Shown here in pieces: positions 11,552-13,925 of a stretch of DNA of 56,832 bases. The translations under genes were made by a program, and so were the position numbers. Origin of the DNA: a virus (taxonomy: Duplodnaviria; Caudoviricetes); the IMG/VR virus record IMGVR_UViG_3300027899_000015, positions 1 to 56,832 of that record; one strand, written 5' to 3'. The notes below the pieces were generated by a model that had not been told where the DNA came from, did no database searches, and was given only the letters and a program-made list of their open reading frames with translations. The number at the start of each line of letters is the position of its first letter. Positions within the stretch are counted from its first letter, which is position 1.

Positions 11552-11578
11552 TAAAGATAGTTAATTAATTAAGGTCAT
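11552..11578 (-). promoter_or_regulatory. Class A promoter-like motif
   Basis: ATGACC-N13-TATCTTTA. Confidence 0.6.
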
Positions 11579-12978
11579 TAAAATGACTGTTGTGTTAATT
11601 CAATAAGTGATTTTTTTCTAATTAATTTTTCAGCTACATAAATACCATGAGCTCCACTAACTGTAATACCACGAGCTGATAAAGCATCGCCTACAAAATG
11701 AACATTATTATATTCTGTTAATGATAAGTTATGATAATTAACTAATGGTTCAGGAGATAAATACTTTACTTCAGGAATGTACATACCCCAATCATCACCA
11801 AAGTTAAATACTTTATTCATTTGATCAATAAAATTAAGAATATGTTGAGCGTATTCTCCAAAAGCAGCATTAAATGAATCTAATGATGGTAACATAAAAG
11901 CATCAACATAGTTTCCTTCACTTGTTTTACTTATTGTACGTGATGGTGAATAATATAAACCAATGTTTTTATCATATTTTTTAATAACTACAGCATCATT
12001 TTCATCTGTTTCAAATTCATCTGCTATTTGAGCCTGGCATTGTTTTACAACATTTCTACTCCAAGTGAATGGATCTTCAATACCTTTAATTTCCATTAAT
12101 ATACCAAAATTGGTCATATCATTTCTATATTGTTCACCTTTTTTAGCGTGACCATTATAAGTTATATCCCCATACGTTTCCTCAACTGCCACATAAGCAG
12201 CGTTATTATTCGTGCAGAAACTGCGAATGGATATGTTATCGAATTTTTGATAGAGTTTAAAGTCATAACTGATATCTATTAATTTTTGAAAATATTTTTG
12301 TGGTGCTTCAAATCGAACACCAATTTGTACTGATTTAGGTTCATTAGGTAATTTATAACTATCTGCTAGTTGTTGAGCAAAATCAATACCTGATTTACCT
12401 ACTGCAAATATGAGTGTATCATATTTTACTGAGTGGGTATCTGTATAGCCTAGTATACTTAGTGGGTTAAATAATACATTATTATTGGCAAAATCAATAT
12501 TAGTTACTTCAGTATTCCACCAAAATTTAACACCTTTATCAACTAAATATTGATACCACGCTTTAGCAATTTCATGTAAGAAATTACTTCCAATGTGCCA
12601 TACAGGAAACATTCTCAAACCAAAATATGGTTTAATAAATTCAGGTTCTTCCTGTGGATCAGACATGAATATTTCGTCTGGTTTGGGGTGAAAGCGAGTA
12701 AAATTATCTACTACTTGTTTCATTAATTCCATAGCTTTTTCTTCACCACAATACTTAGATAATTGACCACCAATTGCTGTATGGTAAGTTAATTTACCAT
12801 CAGACCAACCACCAGCACCTAACATCCCTGTCATTACTTCTTCAGGTAAACGATTAATAGGATCATTTCCTTTATCTATGATTGTGATTAGACTACCATC
12901 ATATCCATTATCTACTAATTTAGTAGCAGCGTTTATACCAGCTACACCTGCTCCTACAATTACTATTTTTTTATCCAT
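11578..12978 (-). CDS. FAD-dependent oxidoreductase (uncharacterised COG2509-like family)
   Basis: IVIVGAGVAG Rossmann motif, GAGGWSDGKL, HIG, IGVRFE, RSFC, NGHA, TNFGIL, PEVKY, FVGD motifs. Confidence 0.85.
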   Translation of the reverse strand: MDKKIVIVGAGVAGINAATKLVDNGYDGSLITIIDKGNDPINRLPEEVMTGMLGAGGWSDGKLTYHTAIGGQLSKYCGEEKAMELMKQVVDNFTRFHPKPDEIFMSDPQEEPEFIKPYFGLRMFPVWHIGSNFLHEIAKAWYQYLVDKGVKFWWNTEVTNIDFANNNVLFNPLSILGYTDTHSVKYDTLIFAVGKSGIDFAQQLADSYKLPNEPKSVQIGVRFEAPQKYFQKLIDISYDFKLYQKFDNISIRSFCTNNNAAYVAVEETYGDITYNGHAKKGEQYRNDMTNFGILMEIKGIEDPFTWSRNVVKQCQAQIADEFETDENDAVVIKKYDKNIGLYYSPSRTISKTSEGNYVDAFMLPSLDSFNAAFGEYAQHILNFIDQMNKVFNFGDDWGMYIPEVKYLSPEPLVNYHNLSLTEYNNVHFVGDALSARGITVSGAHGIYVAEKLIRKKSLIELTQQSF

Positions 12979-13448
12979 TCAGGTACGTTATTTAGTTTGT
13001 TATAATTTAATTTTTTAATTCCAATTTTATCATTAATATAGAAGTTTCTATATGCTTCTATTGTGTTATTTGATTTATATTCATCAGGCATACATTGTGG
13101 TGGATCCCTAAATTCAGTAGATGGTATTTTATCTTCTAATAAAGATAAGTTATCTTTTACCCAAAGCAAAACTTTCTCTGTAGCGTGTTGTTTACCATAT
13201 CTAATAACAAATTCATTACATATTTCTAAACCATGTTCAAGTAACCATTTAGCATGATGAATTGATTCACGAACCCATTTTGTTGATGGATGGTTATAAT
13301 GAGCTTTTTTATATGGTGCTTCTATCCCATAATGATGAAATGTTGTACATAGCATTTGAGCAGACTCAATTTGCATTTTACGAATATGATCATCACATAA
13401 CTGTTTAGCAGCTATTTTTGGATCAGGATGTATATAAAATATATTCAT
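12963..13448 (-). CDS. Pyrimidine-dimer DNA glycosylase / endonuclease V-like family protein
   Basis: MNIFY...CDDHIRKMQIESAQML...HYNHPSTKW...PPQCMPDEYK...AYRNFY; start re-assigned to ATG 13448 because the longer start lies inside the promoter motif. Confidence 0.75.
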   Translation of the reverse strand: MNIFYIHPDPKIAAKQLCDDHIRKMQIESAQMLCTTFHHYGIEAPYKKAHYNHPSTKWVRESIHHAKWLLEHGLEICNEFVIRYGKQHATEKVLLWVKDNLSLLEDKIPSTEFRDPPQCMPDEYKSNNTIEAYRNFYINDKIGIKKLNYNKLNNVPEWIKK

Positions 13449-13452
13449 AAAA

Positions 13453-13479
13453 TTAATATAAGTTATTTGCATAGGTCAA
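13453..13479 (-). promoter_or_regulatory. Class A promoter-like motif
   Basis: TTGACC-N13-TATATTAA, directly after terminator. Confidence 0.65.
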
Positions 13480-13510
13480 ATAAAAGTGGCGCCCTTTTTA
13501 GGGGCGCCAC
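13478..13510 (-). terminator. Intrinsic terminator
   Basis: Minus strand GTGGCGCCC-CTAAAAA-GGGCGCCAC (9-bp stem) followed by TTTTATTT. Confidence 0.85.
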
Positions 13511-13568
13511 AGCTGCCATATTTTATCTCTTTTGAGCGACAGGCTATGAATCTGTCTATATGTTAATA
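13486..13568 (-). ncRNA. Candidate three-way-junction/pseudoknot RNA fused to terminator
   Basis: CAUAU/AUAUG closing stem encloses GACAG-AUUCAUAGC-CUGUC and CUC-AAAA-GAG hairpins; loop CAUAGC can pair with downstream GCUGUG. Confidence 0.5.
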
Positions 13569-13574
13569 AAAATA

Positions 13575-13901
13575 TTAATAACTAAAACCTTCTCCATCAA
13601 TTATTACACCAGAACCATACTCTTCTTCTACTGCTTTTTTAATATCTTCACGATATTTTTTTAATCCCTTCACTCTAATTCTTTGATTACGGGTCCATCC
13701 AGGAAATTCAGTGTCCATATAATCAGCAAAAGCATCACCATCCATATCCATCATAAATGTATTAGTTGCTGGTTGAAATTGACCAAATTCTTTAATGTCC
13801 CAACTCCAAACATTGCTTGGGAATTTTTCAGATACTTGTGATTCATTTATGATACCAGCTAATTGCTGCATTCTTTTAATTTCGTTAATTTGCTTTTTCA
13901 T
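13575..13901 (-). CDS. Hypothetical protein, probable head-internal protein
   Basis: MKKQINEIKRMQQLAGIINES N-terminus shared with 1498..1791; ATATTTAT motif upstream. Confidence 0.6.
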   Translation of the reverse strand: MKKQINEIKRMQQLAGIINESQVSEKFPSNVWSWDIKEFGQFQPATNTFMMDMDGDAFADYMDTEFPGWTRNQRIRVKGLKKYREDIKKAVEEEYGSGVIIDGEGFSY

Positions 13902-13925
13902 TTTTTTTTATTGTAGCTATAAATA

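What the first reader, a model, noticed from the sequence alone, without database searches (positions are those of the whole stretch)
13478..13568. Candidate riboswitch- or ribozyme-like RNA whose pseudoknot overlaps an intrinsic terminator
Seen (minus strand): UUAA CAUAU A GACAG AUUCAUAGC CUGUC G CUC AAAA GAG AUAAA AUAUG GCA GCUGUG GCGCCC CUAAAAA GGGCGCCAC UUUUAUUU. This folds as a three-way junction (CAUAU/AUAUG, GACAG/CUGUC, CUC/GAG). The loop CAUAGC can make 6 bp (one G-U) with GCUGUG, whose GUG is the base of the terminator stem, so pseudoknot and full terminator compete. Established: competing structures of this kind are typical riboswitch expression platforms. The UAA-stem...loop ending AGC...A-rich linker layout is reminiscent of twister/twister-sister ribozymes, but the twister P1 stem and GAGGG segment are missing. 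Downstream genes are the glycosylase and the FAD oxidoreductase. Inference: an unnamed phage cis-regulatory or catalytic RNA. Caveat: a separate promoter motif follows the terminator, so it could instead be a 3'-end small RNA.
Basis: partly seen in the sequence, partly recalled or inferred. Interest (0 to 1): 0.75.

Follow-up and report, generated by a model that had tools for sequence, protein, structure and literature searches.

The report
Phage kissing-loop switch over a terminator
A short RNA element conserved in hundreds of uncultured aquatic phages can fold either into two hairpins whose loops pair with each other or into a transcription terminator, so it looks like a new on/off switch in front of a flavoenzyme gene, with an unknown trigger.

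Summary
The exact 19-base hairpin occurs in at least 119 IMG/VR stretches but only in 2 unrelated places among 185,579 prokaryote species genomes.

Three helices covary on 74 diverse copies:
- P1: 5 of 5 pairs covary.
- Loop pairing CAUAGC/GCUGUG: 3 of 6 pairs have compensatory changes.
- P2: a 3-bp helix I found that encloses GCUGUG (3 of 3 pairs). The "pseudoknot" is therefore a kissing loop between two 9-nt loops.

P2's 3' strand and the kissing strand form the 5' half of the terminator, so the two folds exclude each other. The terminator is far more stable (-19.6 kcal/mol against about -9). Read-through should therefore need a stabilising factor.

Other findings:
- The element is single-copy.
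- It lies 8-21 nt after the upstream stop codon.
- It sits upstream of a conserved flavoprotein gene, which also has a promoter-like motif overlapping the terminator.
- No Rfam family matches.

Verdict: a new phage RNA family, most likely a conditional terminator. The trigger is unknown.

The parts
13557..13565 (-). Conserved 5' flank UAACAUAUA. Its UAA is often the stop codon of the upstream gene in relatives (not in this window, where the stop is at 13575-13577).
   Evidence: conserved A-C/U-A/U-U-A-U/C-A; the upstream stop begins 9 nt before P1 in 45 of 134 copies; the 10-mer is not enriched in the window (12 matches against 15.2 expected), so it is not a repeated promoter word.
13538..13556 (-). 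P1 hairpin: 5-bp stem GACAG/CUGUC (13552-13556 with 13538-13542) and 9-nt loop AUUCAUAGC (13543-13551).
   Evidence: 100% of cells paired, 5 of 5 pairs with changes on both sides; exact 19-mer in at least 119 viral stretches. The loop's AUU is invariant in the 74-sequence alignments.
13543..13548 (-). Kissing strand 1 (CAUAGC), the 3' two-thirds of the P1 loop.
   Evidence: pairs with 13508-13513. Compensatory sets seen: UAUAGC/GCUGUA, CAUUAC/GUAGUG, CAUUGC/GUAGUG, CAUAUC/GAUGUG, CACGGC/GUUGUG, UAUAUC/GAUGUA.
13527..13536 (-). Optional mini-hairpin P1a (CUC-AAAA-GAG) inside the A-rich linker (13518-13537).
   Evidence: present in a subclass only, and replaced elsewhere by GCAU...AUGC or by plain A-rich sequence. 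The gap from the end of P1 to the motif [CU]UGUGG in the second kissing strand is 19-30 nt in the exact-19-mer set.
13515..13517 (-). P2 5' strand (GGC).
   Evidence: position -2/+3 has MI 1.38 bits, 99% paired, with GC 67, CG 37, AU 10, UG 6, UA 6; helix 3 has 3 of 3 pairs covarying and 93.7% paired.
13508..13513 (-). Kissing strand 2 (GCUGUG), in the 9-nt P2 loop A-GCUGUG-GC (13506-13514). Its GUG is also the base of the terminator stem.
   Evidence: A-U and U.G at the two central positions are invariant in 74 of 74 sequences. The flanking A (13514) is invariant, and the GC (13506-13507) is invariant in the 74-sequence alignment, with one A-for-G variant (L227) in the distant clade.
13503..13505 (-). 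P2 3' strand (GCC). It is also part of the terminator's 5' strand.
   Evidence: these 3 nt are paired in the terminator hairpin in 102 of 106 non-redundant copies.
13486..13510 (-). Intrinsic terminator hairpin GUGGCGCCC-CUAAAAA-GGGCGCCAC (9 bp, 8 G-C).
   Evidence: scan. (-19.6 kcal/mol); a hairpin of -10.8 to -23.1 kcal/mol in 106 of 106 copies.
13478..13485 (-). U-run UUUUAUUU of the terminator.
   Evidence: at least 5 U in the 9 nt after the hairpin in 86 of 106 copies (crude measure; some of the rest were mis-measured because a second hairpin was included).
13455..13479 (-). Promoter-like motif: TTGACC (13474-13479) and TATATT (13455-13460), just before the probable start ATG at 13446-13448. 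The spacing in this window (13 nt) is poor. In most relatives it is TTGGNN-17-TATATT, with the first hexamer inside the terminator loop.
   Evidence: 105 of 130 copies score at least 8 of 12 (shuffled mean best 4.9). (sequences). Inferred, not shown.
13575..13901 (-). Upstream gene (108 aa, no family) with N-terminal KRMQQLAGII motif.
12963..13472 (-). Downstream gene 1: Pyr_excise-like glycosylase. The family match starts at residue 9, so the start is probably the ATG at 13448.
   Evidence: PF03013 E 2.9e-6; phrog_624 E 1.8e-52.
11578..12978 (-). Downstream gene 2: FAD/NAD(P) Rossmann flavoprotein of unknown function. This is the gene the element travels with.
   Evidence: Fold nearest to the uncharacterised flavoprotein 3nlc. 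Atlas neighbours carry PF21688 FAD-depend_C.

Best explanation
This is a cis-acting conditional terminator of about 90 nt, transcribed as the tail of the upstream gene.

How it would work:
1. Hairpin P1 forms first.
2. When the next segment emerges it can form a tiny hairpin, P2 (3 bp), whose 9-nt loop pairs over 6 bp with the P1 loop (a kissing loop).
3. P2's 3' strand, the two loop bases GC and the GUG of the kissing strand are together the 5' half of the intrinsic terminator. While the kissing complex holds, the terminator cannot form and RNA polymerase reads on into the glycosylase and flavoprotein genes.
4. If the complex is not held, the much more stable terminator displaces it and transcription stops.

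Because the terminator wins on energy alone, I infer that something must stabilise the kissing complex to switch read-through ON. My split of that inference: a small molecule or ion about 0.3, a protein about 0.15, ribosome position or kinetics about 0.15.

The flavoprotein gene also seems to have its own sigma-70-like promoter overlapping the terminator. The switch would then add or time read-through transcription rather than be the gene's only control.

Shown: the three covarying helices, their mutual exclusivity with the terminator, single copy, phage specificity and gene context. Inferred: transcription of the element, the direction of the switch, the existence of a trigger, and the promoter.
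For: Conservation:
- It has 2 unrelated GC-rich hits among 185,579 prokaryote species genomes.

Covariation on 74 diverse copies:
- P1: 5 of 5 pairs.
- Kissing helix: 3 of 6 pairs.
- P2: 3 of 3 pairs.
- Overall 97.7% of cells paired, against 83.4% in shuffles (0 of 500 reach it) and 26-53% when partners are slid.

Further support for the helices:
- P2 was found blind as the top three mutual-information pairs among all column pairs.
- More compensatory variants appear in a distant clade.
- G.U pairs are tolerated and one U.G is invariant. These would be A.C on the other strand, so the structure belongs to the gene-sense RNA.

Mutual exclusivity and energy:
- The terminator hairpin contains all 3 nt of the P2 3' strand in 102 of 106 copies. 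It contains the whole GUG in 74 of 106 and part of it in 31 more.
- Terminator -19.6 kcal/mol, P2 -2.6, kissing duplex -5.9 to -7.4.

Context:
- Of 117 downstream ORFs found by the gene-blind 19-mer search, 87 are the flavoprotein. Another 14 are a Pyr_excise gene, which in the window overlaps the start of the flavoprotein gene. Another 6 are a GIY-YIG gene.
- 60 of 80 loci chosen only by flavoprotein homology carry the element upstream on the same strand.
- One copy in the window (76.4 bits; next hit 12.8). One full copy in 4 of 5 complete 171-183 kb genomes.

Precedent: in the guanidine-IV riboswitch a ligand-stabilised kissing loop prevents the terminator and turns transcription on (PMC11611296, passages read).
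Against: - No experiment shows transcription, termination or switching. The only RNA-library trace is one 153-nt contig over 13456-13604, and it may be DNA carry-over.
- A promoter-like motif between the terminator and the gene in 105 of 130 copies means the gene may not depend on read-through.
- The element starts 8-21 nt after the upstream stop codon in 108 of 134 copies. It is therefore equally a 3' end of the upstream transcript.
- About half of the upstream ORFs fall in one loose family (64 of 128 by single linkage), so the link is not only to the downstream gene.
- 9 loci with the full 1500-nt upstream flank, and one complete genome, have the flavoprotein gene without the element. It is dispensable.
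- P2 has only 3 bp, and in 13 of 74 sequences its outer pair is not standard (12 A.A, 1 U.U).
- The flavoprotein's function is unknown, so nothing points to a ligand.
Confidence: 0.6

Rival explanations
1. It is a stable small RNA, either the processed 3' end of the upstream mRNA or a tiny gene of its own. It would act in trans through the invariant P1 loop. The internal kissing pairing would only mask or shape that seed, and the terminator would simply be its 3' end.
For: - The element begins right after the upstream stop codon and ends at a strong terminator.
- The loop is almost invariant while the stems vary.
- In one metatranscriptome run the only contig on the 1.2-kb stretch covers just 13456-13604.
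- A promoter-like motif downstream would make read-through unnecessary.
Against: - A trans-acting RNA has no need for a P2 that covaries with the terminator's 5' strand and is mutually exclusive with the terminator.
- Loop changes are always matched by changes in the nearby partner strand, so the loop's partner is internal.
- There is no conserved -35 upstream, and the flank word is not a repeated promoter.
- The RNA contig runs 30 nt past the terminator and may be DNA.
Confidence: 0.15
2. It is a translation-coupled attenuator. A ribosome stopping at the upstream stop codon, typically 9 nt before P1, covers the 5' strand of P1. The kissing complex then cannot form and the terminator acts. Without a closely following ribosome, P1 folds and polymerase reads through. 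No ligand is needed.
For: - The stop codon's first base is exactly 9 nt before P1 in 45 of 134 copies, 10 nt in 11, and within 8-21 nt in 108.
- The -9/-10 position is used by members of 16 of 32 unrelated upstream protein clusters.
- Where UAA stands at -9..-7 (75 of 134 copies) it is the stop codon of the upstream ORF in most cases (45 stops begin at -9).
- From general knowledge, not a call: a terminating ribosome shields roughly 12 nt beyond the stop codon's first base.
Against: - The spacing is not fixed (2 to 89 nt). In this window the stop is 21 nt upstream.
- Tight packing of genes against a conserved element is expected in phages anyway.
- It does not explain the invariant unpaired bases in both loops.
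Confidence: 0.1
3. It is a DNA-level recombination cassette, like the composite terminator-promoter PeSL elements of T4-type phages. It would be conserved because it mediates gene shuffling, and the RNA pairings would be incidental.
For: - A terminator fused to a promoter-like motif.
- It sits at the border between variable upstream genes (27 clusters) and a conserved gene.
- P1-only partial copies flank inserted genes (L150 951-1010 with the full copy at 1367-1433; L019, L052/L106 and L114; a second weaker hit in G001).
- PeSLs are described as terminator/promoter elements driving indels (PMC4122927, abstract and introduction read).
Against: - Compensatory base changes in three helices, with G.U tolerated on one strand only, are selection on RNA folding and not on DNA identity.
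- The element is single-copy per genome, whereas PeSLs are described as a series of elements per genome.
- Recombination could be a side effect of conservation.
Confidence: 0.05
4. It is a self-cleaving ribozyme of the twister, twister-sister or pistol kind, or of a new class.
For: A hairpin loop pairing with a downstream strand next to a second hairpin is topologically like pistol (recalled, not tested by any search). Phage context is common for small ribozymes (recalled).
Against: - No ribozyme family of Rfam 15 matches the window region at E up to 10, or 8 homologous loci at E up to 5. None reaches gathering score in the window or in 15 loci.
- The conserved alternative pairing with a terminator has no role in a ribozyme.
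Confidence: 0.03

Closest known systems
Guanidine-IV (mepA motif) riboswitch
   Same: Two hairpins joined by a linker. A kissing loop between them forms the antiterminator and hinders the complete terminator stem. Read-through is switched ON when the kissing loop is stabilised (PMC11611296, passages read). Here too the kissing loop and the terminator are exclusive, and the terminator is the more stable fold.
   Different: - No sequence or covariance-model likeness. Rfam 15 gives no match at gathering score or at permissive E-values.
- Different loop sequences, and a P2 of only 3 bp.
- Found only in phage contigs.
- The downstream gene is a flavoprotein, not an exporter.
- It sits directly behind an upstream stop codon, and a promoter-like motif follows it.
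- No ligand is known.
PeSL composite terminator-promoter cassettes of T4-type phages
   Same: An intergenic stem-loop terminator joined to an early-type promoter, at the edges of variable gene regions, implicated in gene swapping (PMC4122927, abstract and introduction; PMC2839356, search listing only). Here there is a terminator with an overlapping TTGGNN-17-TATATT motif, and partial copies beside inserted genes.
   Different: PeSLs are described as a series of elements within one genome, whereas this element is single-copy. The parts of those papers I read describe no upstream hairpin or kissing loop. The covarying P1, kissing-loop and P2 module is the new part.
H-type pseudoknot riboswitches (preQ1-I, SAM-II/V, fluoride); recalled from general knowledge
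   Same: A short hairpin whose loop pairs with a strand downstream of an A-rich linker, and a structure that decides the fate of an adjacent terminator.
   Different: The downstream partner here lies in the loop of its own covarying hairpin. The linker is long and variable: about 18-29 nt lie between P1 and the second kissing strand in the exact-19-mer set (derived). No Rfam model of these classes matches.
Phage antitermination RNAs (lambda nut, HK022 put); recalled from general knowledge
   Same: A phage-encoded RNA element just upstream of terminators that lets polymerase read through at a chosen time.
   Different: Those elements modify the polymerase and work on distant terminators. This element base-pairs with the terminator's own 5' strand, which is attenuation, not processive antitermination.
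Catalogue of 10,006 candidate structured RNAs in viruses and phages (Fremin et al. 2023)
   Same: It was mined from IMG/VR. [quoted passage not shown] This element could be one of them.
   Different: The main text has no occurrence of 'oxidoreductase', 'FAD' or 'kissing'.

Membership tests
Twister / twister-sister / pistol / hatchet self-cleaving ribozymes | Match to the family covariance model (conserved core and helices) | tested here: not met
   Rfam 15 cmscan gave 0 gathering hits in the window and in 15 homologous loci. No ribozyme family is listed at E up to 10 over 13300-13750 or at E up to 5 in 8 loci.
Twister / twister-sister / pistol / hatchet self-cleaving ribozymes | Site-specific self-cleavage | not testable with these tools
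   Needs an in vitro transcription or cleavage assay.
Guanidine-IV (mepA) riboswitch | Match to the Rfam model or conserved loop sequences | tested here: not met
   No match.
Guanidine-IV (mepA) riboswitch | Two hairpins whose loops kiss, the kissing complex being exclusive with a terminator | tested here: met
   P1, kissing helix and P2 covary. The terminator uses the P2 3' strand in 102 of 106 copies. This shows that it works like this family, not that it is a member.
Guanidine-IV (mepA) riboswitch | Binds guanidine and sits before guanidine exporter genes | tested here: not met
   Gene context part: the downstream genes are a flavoprotein, Pyr_excise, GIY-YIG and carbamoyltransferase, and none is an exporter. 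Binding is not testable here.
Riboswitch (general) | Conserved structured aptamer with covarying helices and invariant unpaired bases | tested here: met
   Invariant unpaired bases in the 74-sequence alignment: AUU in the P1 loop, and A and GC in the P2 loop.
Riboswitch (general) | Expression platform with mutually exclusive folds | tested here: met
Riboswitch (general) | Direct binding of a small-molecule ligand that changes the fold | not testable with these tools
   Needs in-line probing, ITC or termination assays.
Riboswitch (general) | Lies in the 5' leader of the regulated gene, with the promoter upstream of the aptamer | tested here: inconclusive
   It is upstream of the flavoprotein gene in 60 of 80 homology-chosen loci. 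However, it follows an upstream stop codon, has no conserved promoter before it, and a promoter-like motif lies after it.
PeSL terminator-promoter cassette | Stem-loop terminator joined to a sigma-70-type early promoter in an intergenic region | tested here: met
   (the promoter is by consensus only).
PeSL terminator-promoter cassette | A series of similar copies within one genome | tested here: not met
   One hit in the window. One full copy in 4 of 5 complete genomes and none in the fifth.
Intrinsic (Rho-independent) terminator | G+C-rich hairpin followed directly by a U-run | tested here: met
   (9 bp, 8 G-C, then TTTTATTT); hairpin in 106 of 106 copies, and at least 5 U of 9 in 86.

The most novel reading that the evidence does not exclude
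A new riboswitch class found only in uncultured ~175-kb aquatic myophages. In this reading a metabolite or ion binds at the junctions of a 6-bp kissing complex, at the invariant AUU, A, GC and U.G wobble. It holds the complex against a terminator that is about 10 kcal/mol more stable, and so turns on read-through into a flavoenzyme of unknown function and UV-repair glycosylase genes. The ligand would then also point to what that widespread, unstudied flavoprotein family does.
Probability: 0.3. Interest if true: 0.85.

Novelty: new variant of a known kind. Interest (0 to 1): 0.72.

Why it matters
- Phage-specific regulatory RNAs with solid covariation are few, and riboswitch-like switches that belong to phages rather than to their hosts are rarer still.
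- This one is short (about 90 nt), single-copy and present in hundreds of lake and sea phage contigs. All three of its helices, plus the competing terminator, are supported by natural compensatory mutations, so it can be tested directly with synthetic templates.
- If a ligand exists, it would give a first functional handle on a viral flavoprotein family (COG2509-like, fold of PDB 3nlc) that nobody has characterised.
- If the trigger is a protein or the ribosome, it would be a compact example of timed antitermination in large phages. How early transcripts pass terminators in such phages is still poorly understood.
- The kissing-loop module could also serve as a small designable transcription switch.

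Tried and rejected
- Rfam at gathering and at permissive thresholds, on the window and on homologous loci: nothing at the element. The weak hits (snoRNAs, STnc300, manA-II at 16.6 of 100 bits) are chance.
- The idea that UAACAUAUAG is a repeated phage promoter word: rejected. There are 12 matches against 15.2 expected in the window.
- More copies in the window or genome: none.
- Cellular genomes: 2 exact 19-mer hits with unrelated GC-rich flanks, at chance level.
- Cultured relatives:
  - blastn of the region finds only a 63.5% partial match in a Pseudoalteromonas phage.
  - The flavoprotein has only 23-26% identical relatives in Campylobacter phages and gut phage contigs. No isolate is at hand for experiments.
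- Function of the flavoprotein:
  - Pfam and NCBIfam give only the Rossmann fold.
  - No PDB sequence match.
  - The AlphaFold model (pLDDT 79.8) is nearest to the uncharacterised 3nlc.
  - Atlas neighbours are unnamed or carry FAD-depend_C.
  - No clue to a ligand came from any of this.
- Expression: one RNA run among 24 listed held a small share. Laid, it gave one 153-nt contig at 13456-13604. This is too little to show transcription or ends. Parts of the stretch without cover in that run mean nothing.
- Earlier findings of this scan: three look-ups, nothing on record.
- Literature: searches for a kissing-loop phage riboswitch, PeSL and structured phage RNAs found no description of this motif. 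The supplements of PMC10690425 could not be opened.
Full report
**What is at the site**

It fills the gap between a 108-aa ORF (13575..13901) and a Pyr_excise-like glycosylase ORF (12963..13472; its family match starts at residue 9). That ORF overlaps the start of a 466-aa FAD/NAD(P) Rossmann protein (11578..12978). The consensus scan finds one strong terminator here: GTGGCGCCC-CTAAAAA-GGGCGCCAC followed by TTTTATTT, at 13510..13486. The plain MFE fold of the 111-nt gap gives z = -3.3, but it is dominated by the terminator.

The window is a virus record of 56.8 kb (CheckV completeness 37%), about 30% G+C. It carries portal, large terminase and baseplate genes and no tRNA.

**Conservation**

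- The 19-base hairpin GACAGATTCATAGCCTGTC occurs once in the window.
- The same exact search over one genome for each of 185,579 prokaryote species gave 2 hits, in GC-rich MAG contigs with no flank likeness. That is what chance would give.
- Around the hairpin the copies share a 5' flank (U)AACAUAUA, a variable A-rich linker, the block (A/G)AGCUGUGGC, a variable G+C-rich hairpin and a U-rich run.
- Of 100 distinct sequences, 97 have [CU]UGUGG 19-30 nt after the hairpin. The other 3 (from 4 loci) are hairpin-only copies followed by a gene.

**Gene context**

For the 122 copies found by the gene-blind 19-mer search, a downstream ORF was called for 117:

| Downstream ORF | Copies |
|---|---|
| Homologue of the window's flavoprotein (45-93% identity over the aligned part) | 87 |
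| Pyr_excise-like gene as in the window | 14 |
| GIY-YIG endonuclease gene | 6 |
| Other genes (among them a DenV-like Pyr_excise gene and a carbamoyltransferase) | 10 |

Upstream ORFs (112 called) fall into 27 clusters, the largest with 36 members. With stop-to-stop ORFs and single linkage, 64 of 128 join one loose family that shares an N-terminal KRMQ(Q/K)LAGI motif.

Of the best 80 loci, 60 carry the element upstream on the same strand. Of the 20 without it, 11 have less than 530 nt of upstream DNA in the locus, and 9 have the full 1500 nt and truly lack it. In a more distant protein clade, 22 of 40 loci have it.

**Structure**

The protein-selected loci supplied variants, so pairing could be tested.

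On 74 diverse copies (alignment A3):

| Helix | Cells paired | Pairs with changes on both sides |
|---|---|---|
| P1 | 100% | 5 of 5 |
| Loop pairing CAUAGC/GCUGUG | 97.7% | 3 of 6 |

- Compensatory sets for the loop pairing are UAUAGC/GCUGUA, CAUUAC/GUAGUG, CAUUGC/GUAGUG and CAUAUC/GAUGUG.
- An A-U pair and a U.G pair in the loop pairing are invariant in 74 of 74.
- The distant clade adds CACGGC/GUUGUG, UAUAUC/GAUGUA and CAUGGC/GCUGUG.

An all-against-all mutual-information scan on 127 non-redundant copies, anchored on the two conserved blocks, put three unexpected column pairs on top. The three bases at -4..-2 before GCUGUG pair with the bases at +5..+3 after it. Position -2/+3 has 1.38 bits, is 99% paired, and shows GC 67, CG 37, AU 10, UG 6, UA 6. 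On A3 this helix P2 has 3 of 3 pairs covarying and is 93.7% paired.

For the whole three-helix structure, 0 of 500 shuffles reach any of the five measures. Sliding the partners by 1-3 columns drops pairing to 26-53%. RNAalifold on its own recovers P1 and P2.

- AUU-CAUAGC in P1;
- A-GCUGUG-GC in P2.

The unpaired AUU and A are invariant. The unpaired GC is invariant in the 74 sequences, with one A-for-G variant (L227) in the distant clade. G.U pairs are tolerated, which assigns the structure to the gene-sense RNA.

Native 5' flank/linker duplexes are no better than flank and linker taken from different sequences (-0.66 against -0.82 kcal/mol; 197 of 200 permutations as good or better). The CUC/GAG mini-hairpin is an optional insert of a subclass.

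**The switch**

In the window, P2's 3' strand (13503-13505), the loop bases GC and the GUG of the kissing strand make up 8 of the 9 bases of the terminator's 5' strand.

Across 106 non-redundant copies:
- a hairpin of -10.8 to -23.1 kcal/mol follows in all 106;
- it contains all three P2 3'-strand bases in 102;
- it contains the GC in 103;
- it contains the whole GUG in 74, and part of it in 31 more.

The same bases are thus kept complementary to two different partners, which is the signature of an antiterminator/terminator pair.

Energies for the window:

| Fold | kcal/mol |
|---|---|
| Terminator | -19.6 |
| P2 | -2.6 |
| 6-7-bp kissing duplex | -5.9 to -7.4 |

Left alone, the terminator should win. 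Read-through therefore needs the kissing complex to be held, by a ligand, a protein or timing. This is inference.

The nearest described mechanism is the guanidine-IV riboswitch, where a guanidine-stabilised kissing loop hinders the complete terminator stem and turns transcription on (PMC11611296, passages). There is no model-level likeness to it or to any Rfam 15 family:
- 0 gathering hits in the window and in 15 homologous loci;
- nothing at the element at permissive E-values in the window region or in 8 loci.

**Surroundings that complicate the picture**

- *Upstream stop codon.* The element starts right behind the upstream gene. The stop codon's first base is 9 nt before P1 in 45 of 134 copies, 10 nt in 11, and within 8-21 nt in 108. 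The -9/-10 position is used in 16 of 32 unrelated upstream clusters. This may be plain compaction, or it may couple the switch to the terminating ribosome.
- *Promoter-like motif.* A sigma-70-like motif follows or overlaps the terminator. 105 of 130 copies score at least 8 of 12 under a strict pattern, against a shuffled mean best of 4.9. The commonest form is TTTGGA/TTGGNN-17/18-TATATT, with the first hexamer inside the terminator loop. This is the composite terminator-promoter design described as PeSL in T4-type phages (PMC4122927, abstract and introduction). PeSLs, however, come as a series per genome.
- *Copy number.* This element is single-copy. There is one hit in the window (76.4 bits; next 12.8). 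Four of 5 complete 171-183 kb genomes with terminal repeats have one full copy, one of these also has a partial copy, and the fifth has none.
- *Partial copies.* P1-only copies beside inserted genes (L150, L019, L052/L106, L114) suggest that the conserved element is also a recombination site.

**Expression**

Of 24 listed runs only one is an RNA library. Its single contig on the 1.2-kb stretch is 153 nt long and covers 13456-13604, which is the element and little else. This is a weak hint at best, since DNA can sit in RNA libraries and contigs show no ends.

In DNA runs, contig depth peaks over 13515-13596, because the element is more conserved than its flanks. Some contigs join the terminator directly to the flavoprotein gene, skipping the glycosylase. 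That matches the commoner gene order.

**The regulated gene**

The flavoprotein has only generic Rossmann matches and no PDB relative by sequence. Its AlphaFold model (pLDDT 79.8) is closest to 3nlc, an uncharacterised Vibrio flavoprotein (E 4e-19, TM 0.63/0.56). Atlas neighbours are viral 'hypothetical' clusters and bacterial FAD-depend_C proteins. Cultured-phage relatives are only 23-26% identical. Nothing here names a ligand.

**Verdict**

- A real, conserved, phage-specific structured RNA (I put this at about 0.95).
- Most likely it works as a conditional terminator whose antiterminator is a kissing-loop complex (0.6). The trigger is unknown.
- It is a new RNA family working by a known kind of mechanism.
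- Print check: four literature searches found no description of it. A 2023 catalogue of 8,495 IMG/VR candidates, of which 1,241 contain terminators, may list it in supplements I could not open.

Noticed in passing
window 13843-13901 (-); also L150, L019 and many upstream ORFs of related loci: Many otherwise different small proteins next to the element begin with the same motif, MKKQINEIKRMQ(Q/K)LAGII. By single linkage, 64 of 128 upstream ORFs join through it. Metagenome contig depth peaks over this stretch (13843-13924). It looks like a shared N-terminal module on variable C-termini.
   Followed up: partly
L150:951-1010 and 1367-1433; L019:4594 and 5900; L114:1137 and 1717; G001:C1:124060-124114: Partial copies (P1 plus the start of the linker, with no P2 or terminator) stand just before an inserted gene, and a full copy follows that gene. 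It looks as if genes were inserted by recombination within the element.
   Followed up: partly
window 12963-13472 (-); L025:13430-13837; L140, L149, L170 upstream of the flavoprotein gene: Two different Pyr_excise (pyrimidine-dimer glycosylase) forms occupy the same slot between the element and the flavoprotein gene. One is a 136-aa DenV-like form (PF03013 E 1.3e-14). The other is the 160-aa 'MNIFYIHPDP' form of the window (E 2.9e-6). The slot seems to collect UV-repair genes.
   Followed up: partly
L061:4224-4904; L161, L189, L197 upstream of the flavoprotein gene: Homing-endonuclease-type genes are inserted between the element and the flavoprotein gene in several phages. GIY-YIG was confirmed by Pfam in L061. 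The others I judged only by eye.
   Followed up: partly
window 13446-13460 (-): The glycosylase's likely start ATG (13446-13448) lies only 6 nt after a TATATT hexamer, with no Shine-Dalgarno-like bases. If that hexamer is a -10 element, the mRNA would be leaderless or nearly so.
   Followed up: no
window 13545-13547 with 13509-13511 (-): Inside the kissing helix an A-U pair and a U.G wobble never vary (74 of 74), although neighbouring pairs change freely. The paired triplets read CAU and GUG, like an initiator anticodon on a GUG start codon. This may be coincidence. It is unexplained.
   Followed up: no
L168 / G005 and L172, upstream of the flavoprotein gene: In a complete 176-kb genome that lacks the element, the flavoprotein gene is still preceded by TTTGGT-18-TATAAT. 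The promoter-like motif therefore persists without the switch.
   Followed up: no
Campylobacter phage records (e.g. NC_015464.1 3932-5092): The only cultured-phage relatives of the flavoprotein (23-24% identity, annotated NAD(FAD)-utilizing dehydrogenase) are in T4-like Campylobacter phages. I did not check whether they have any upstream RNA element.
   Followed up: no
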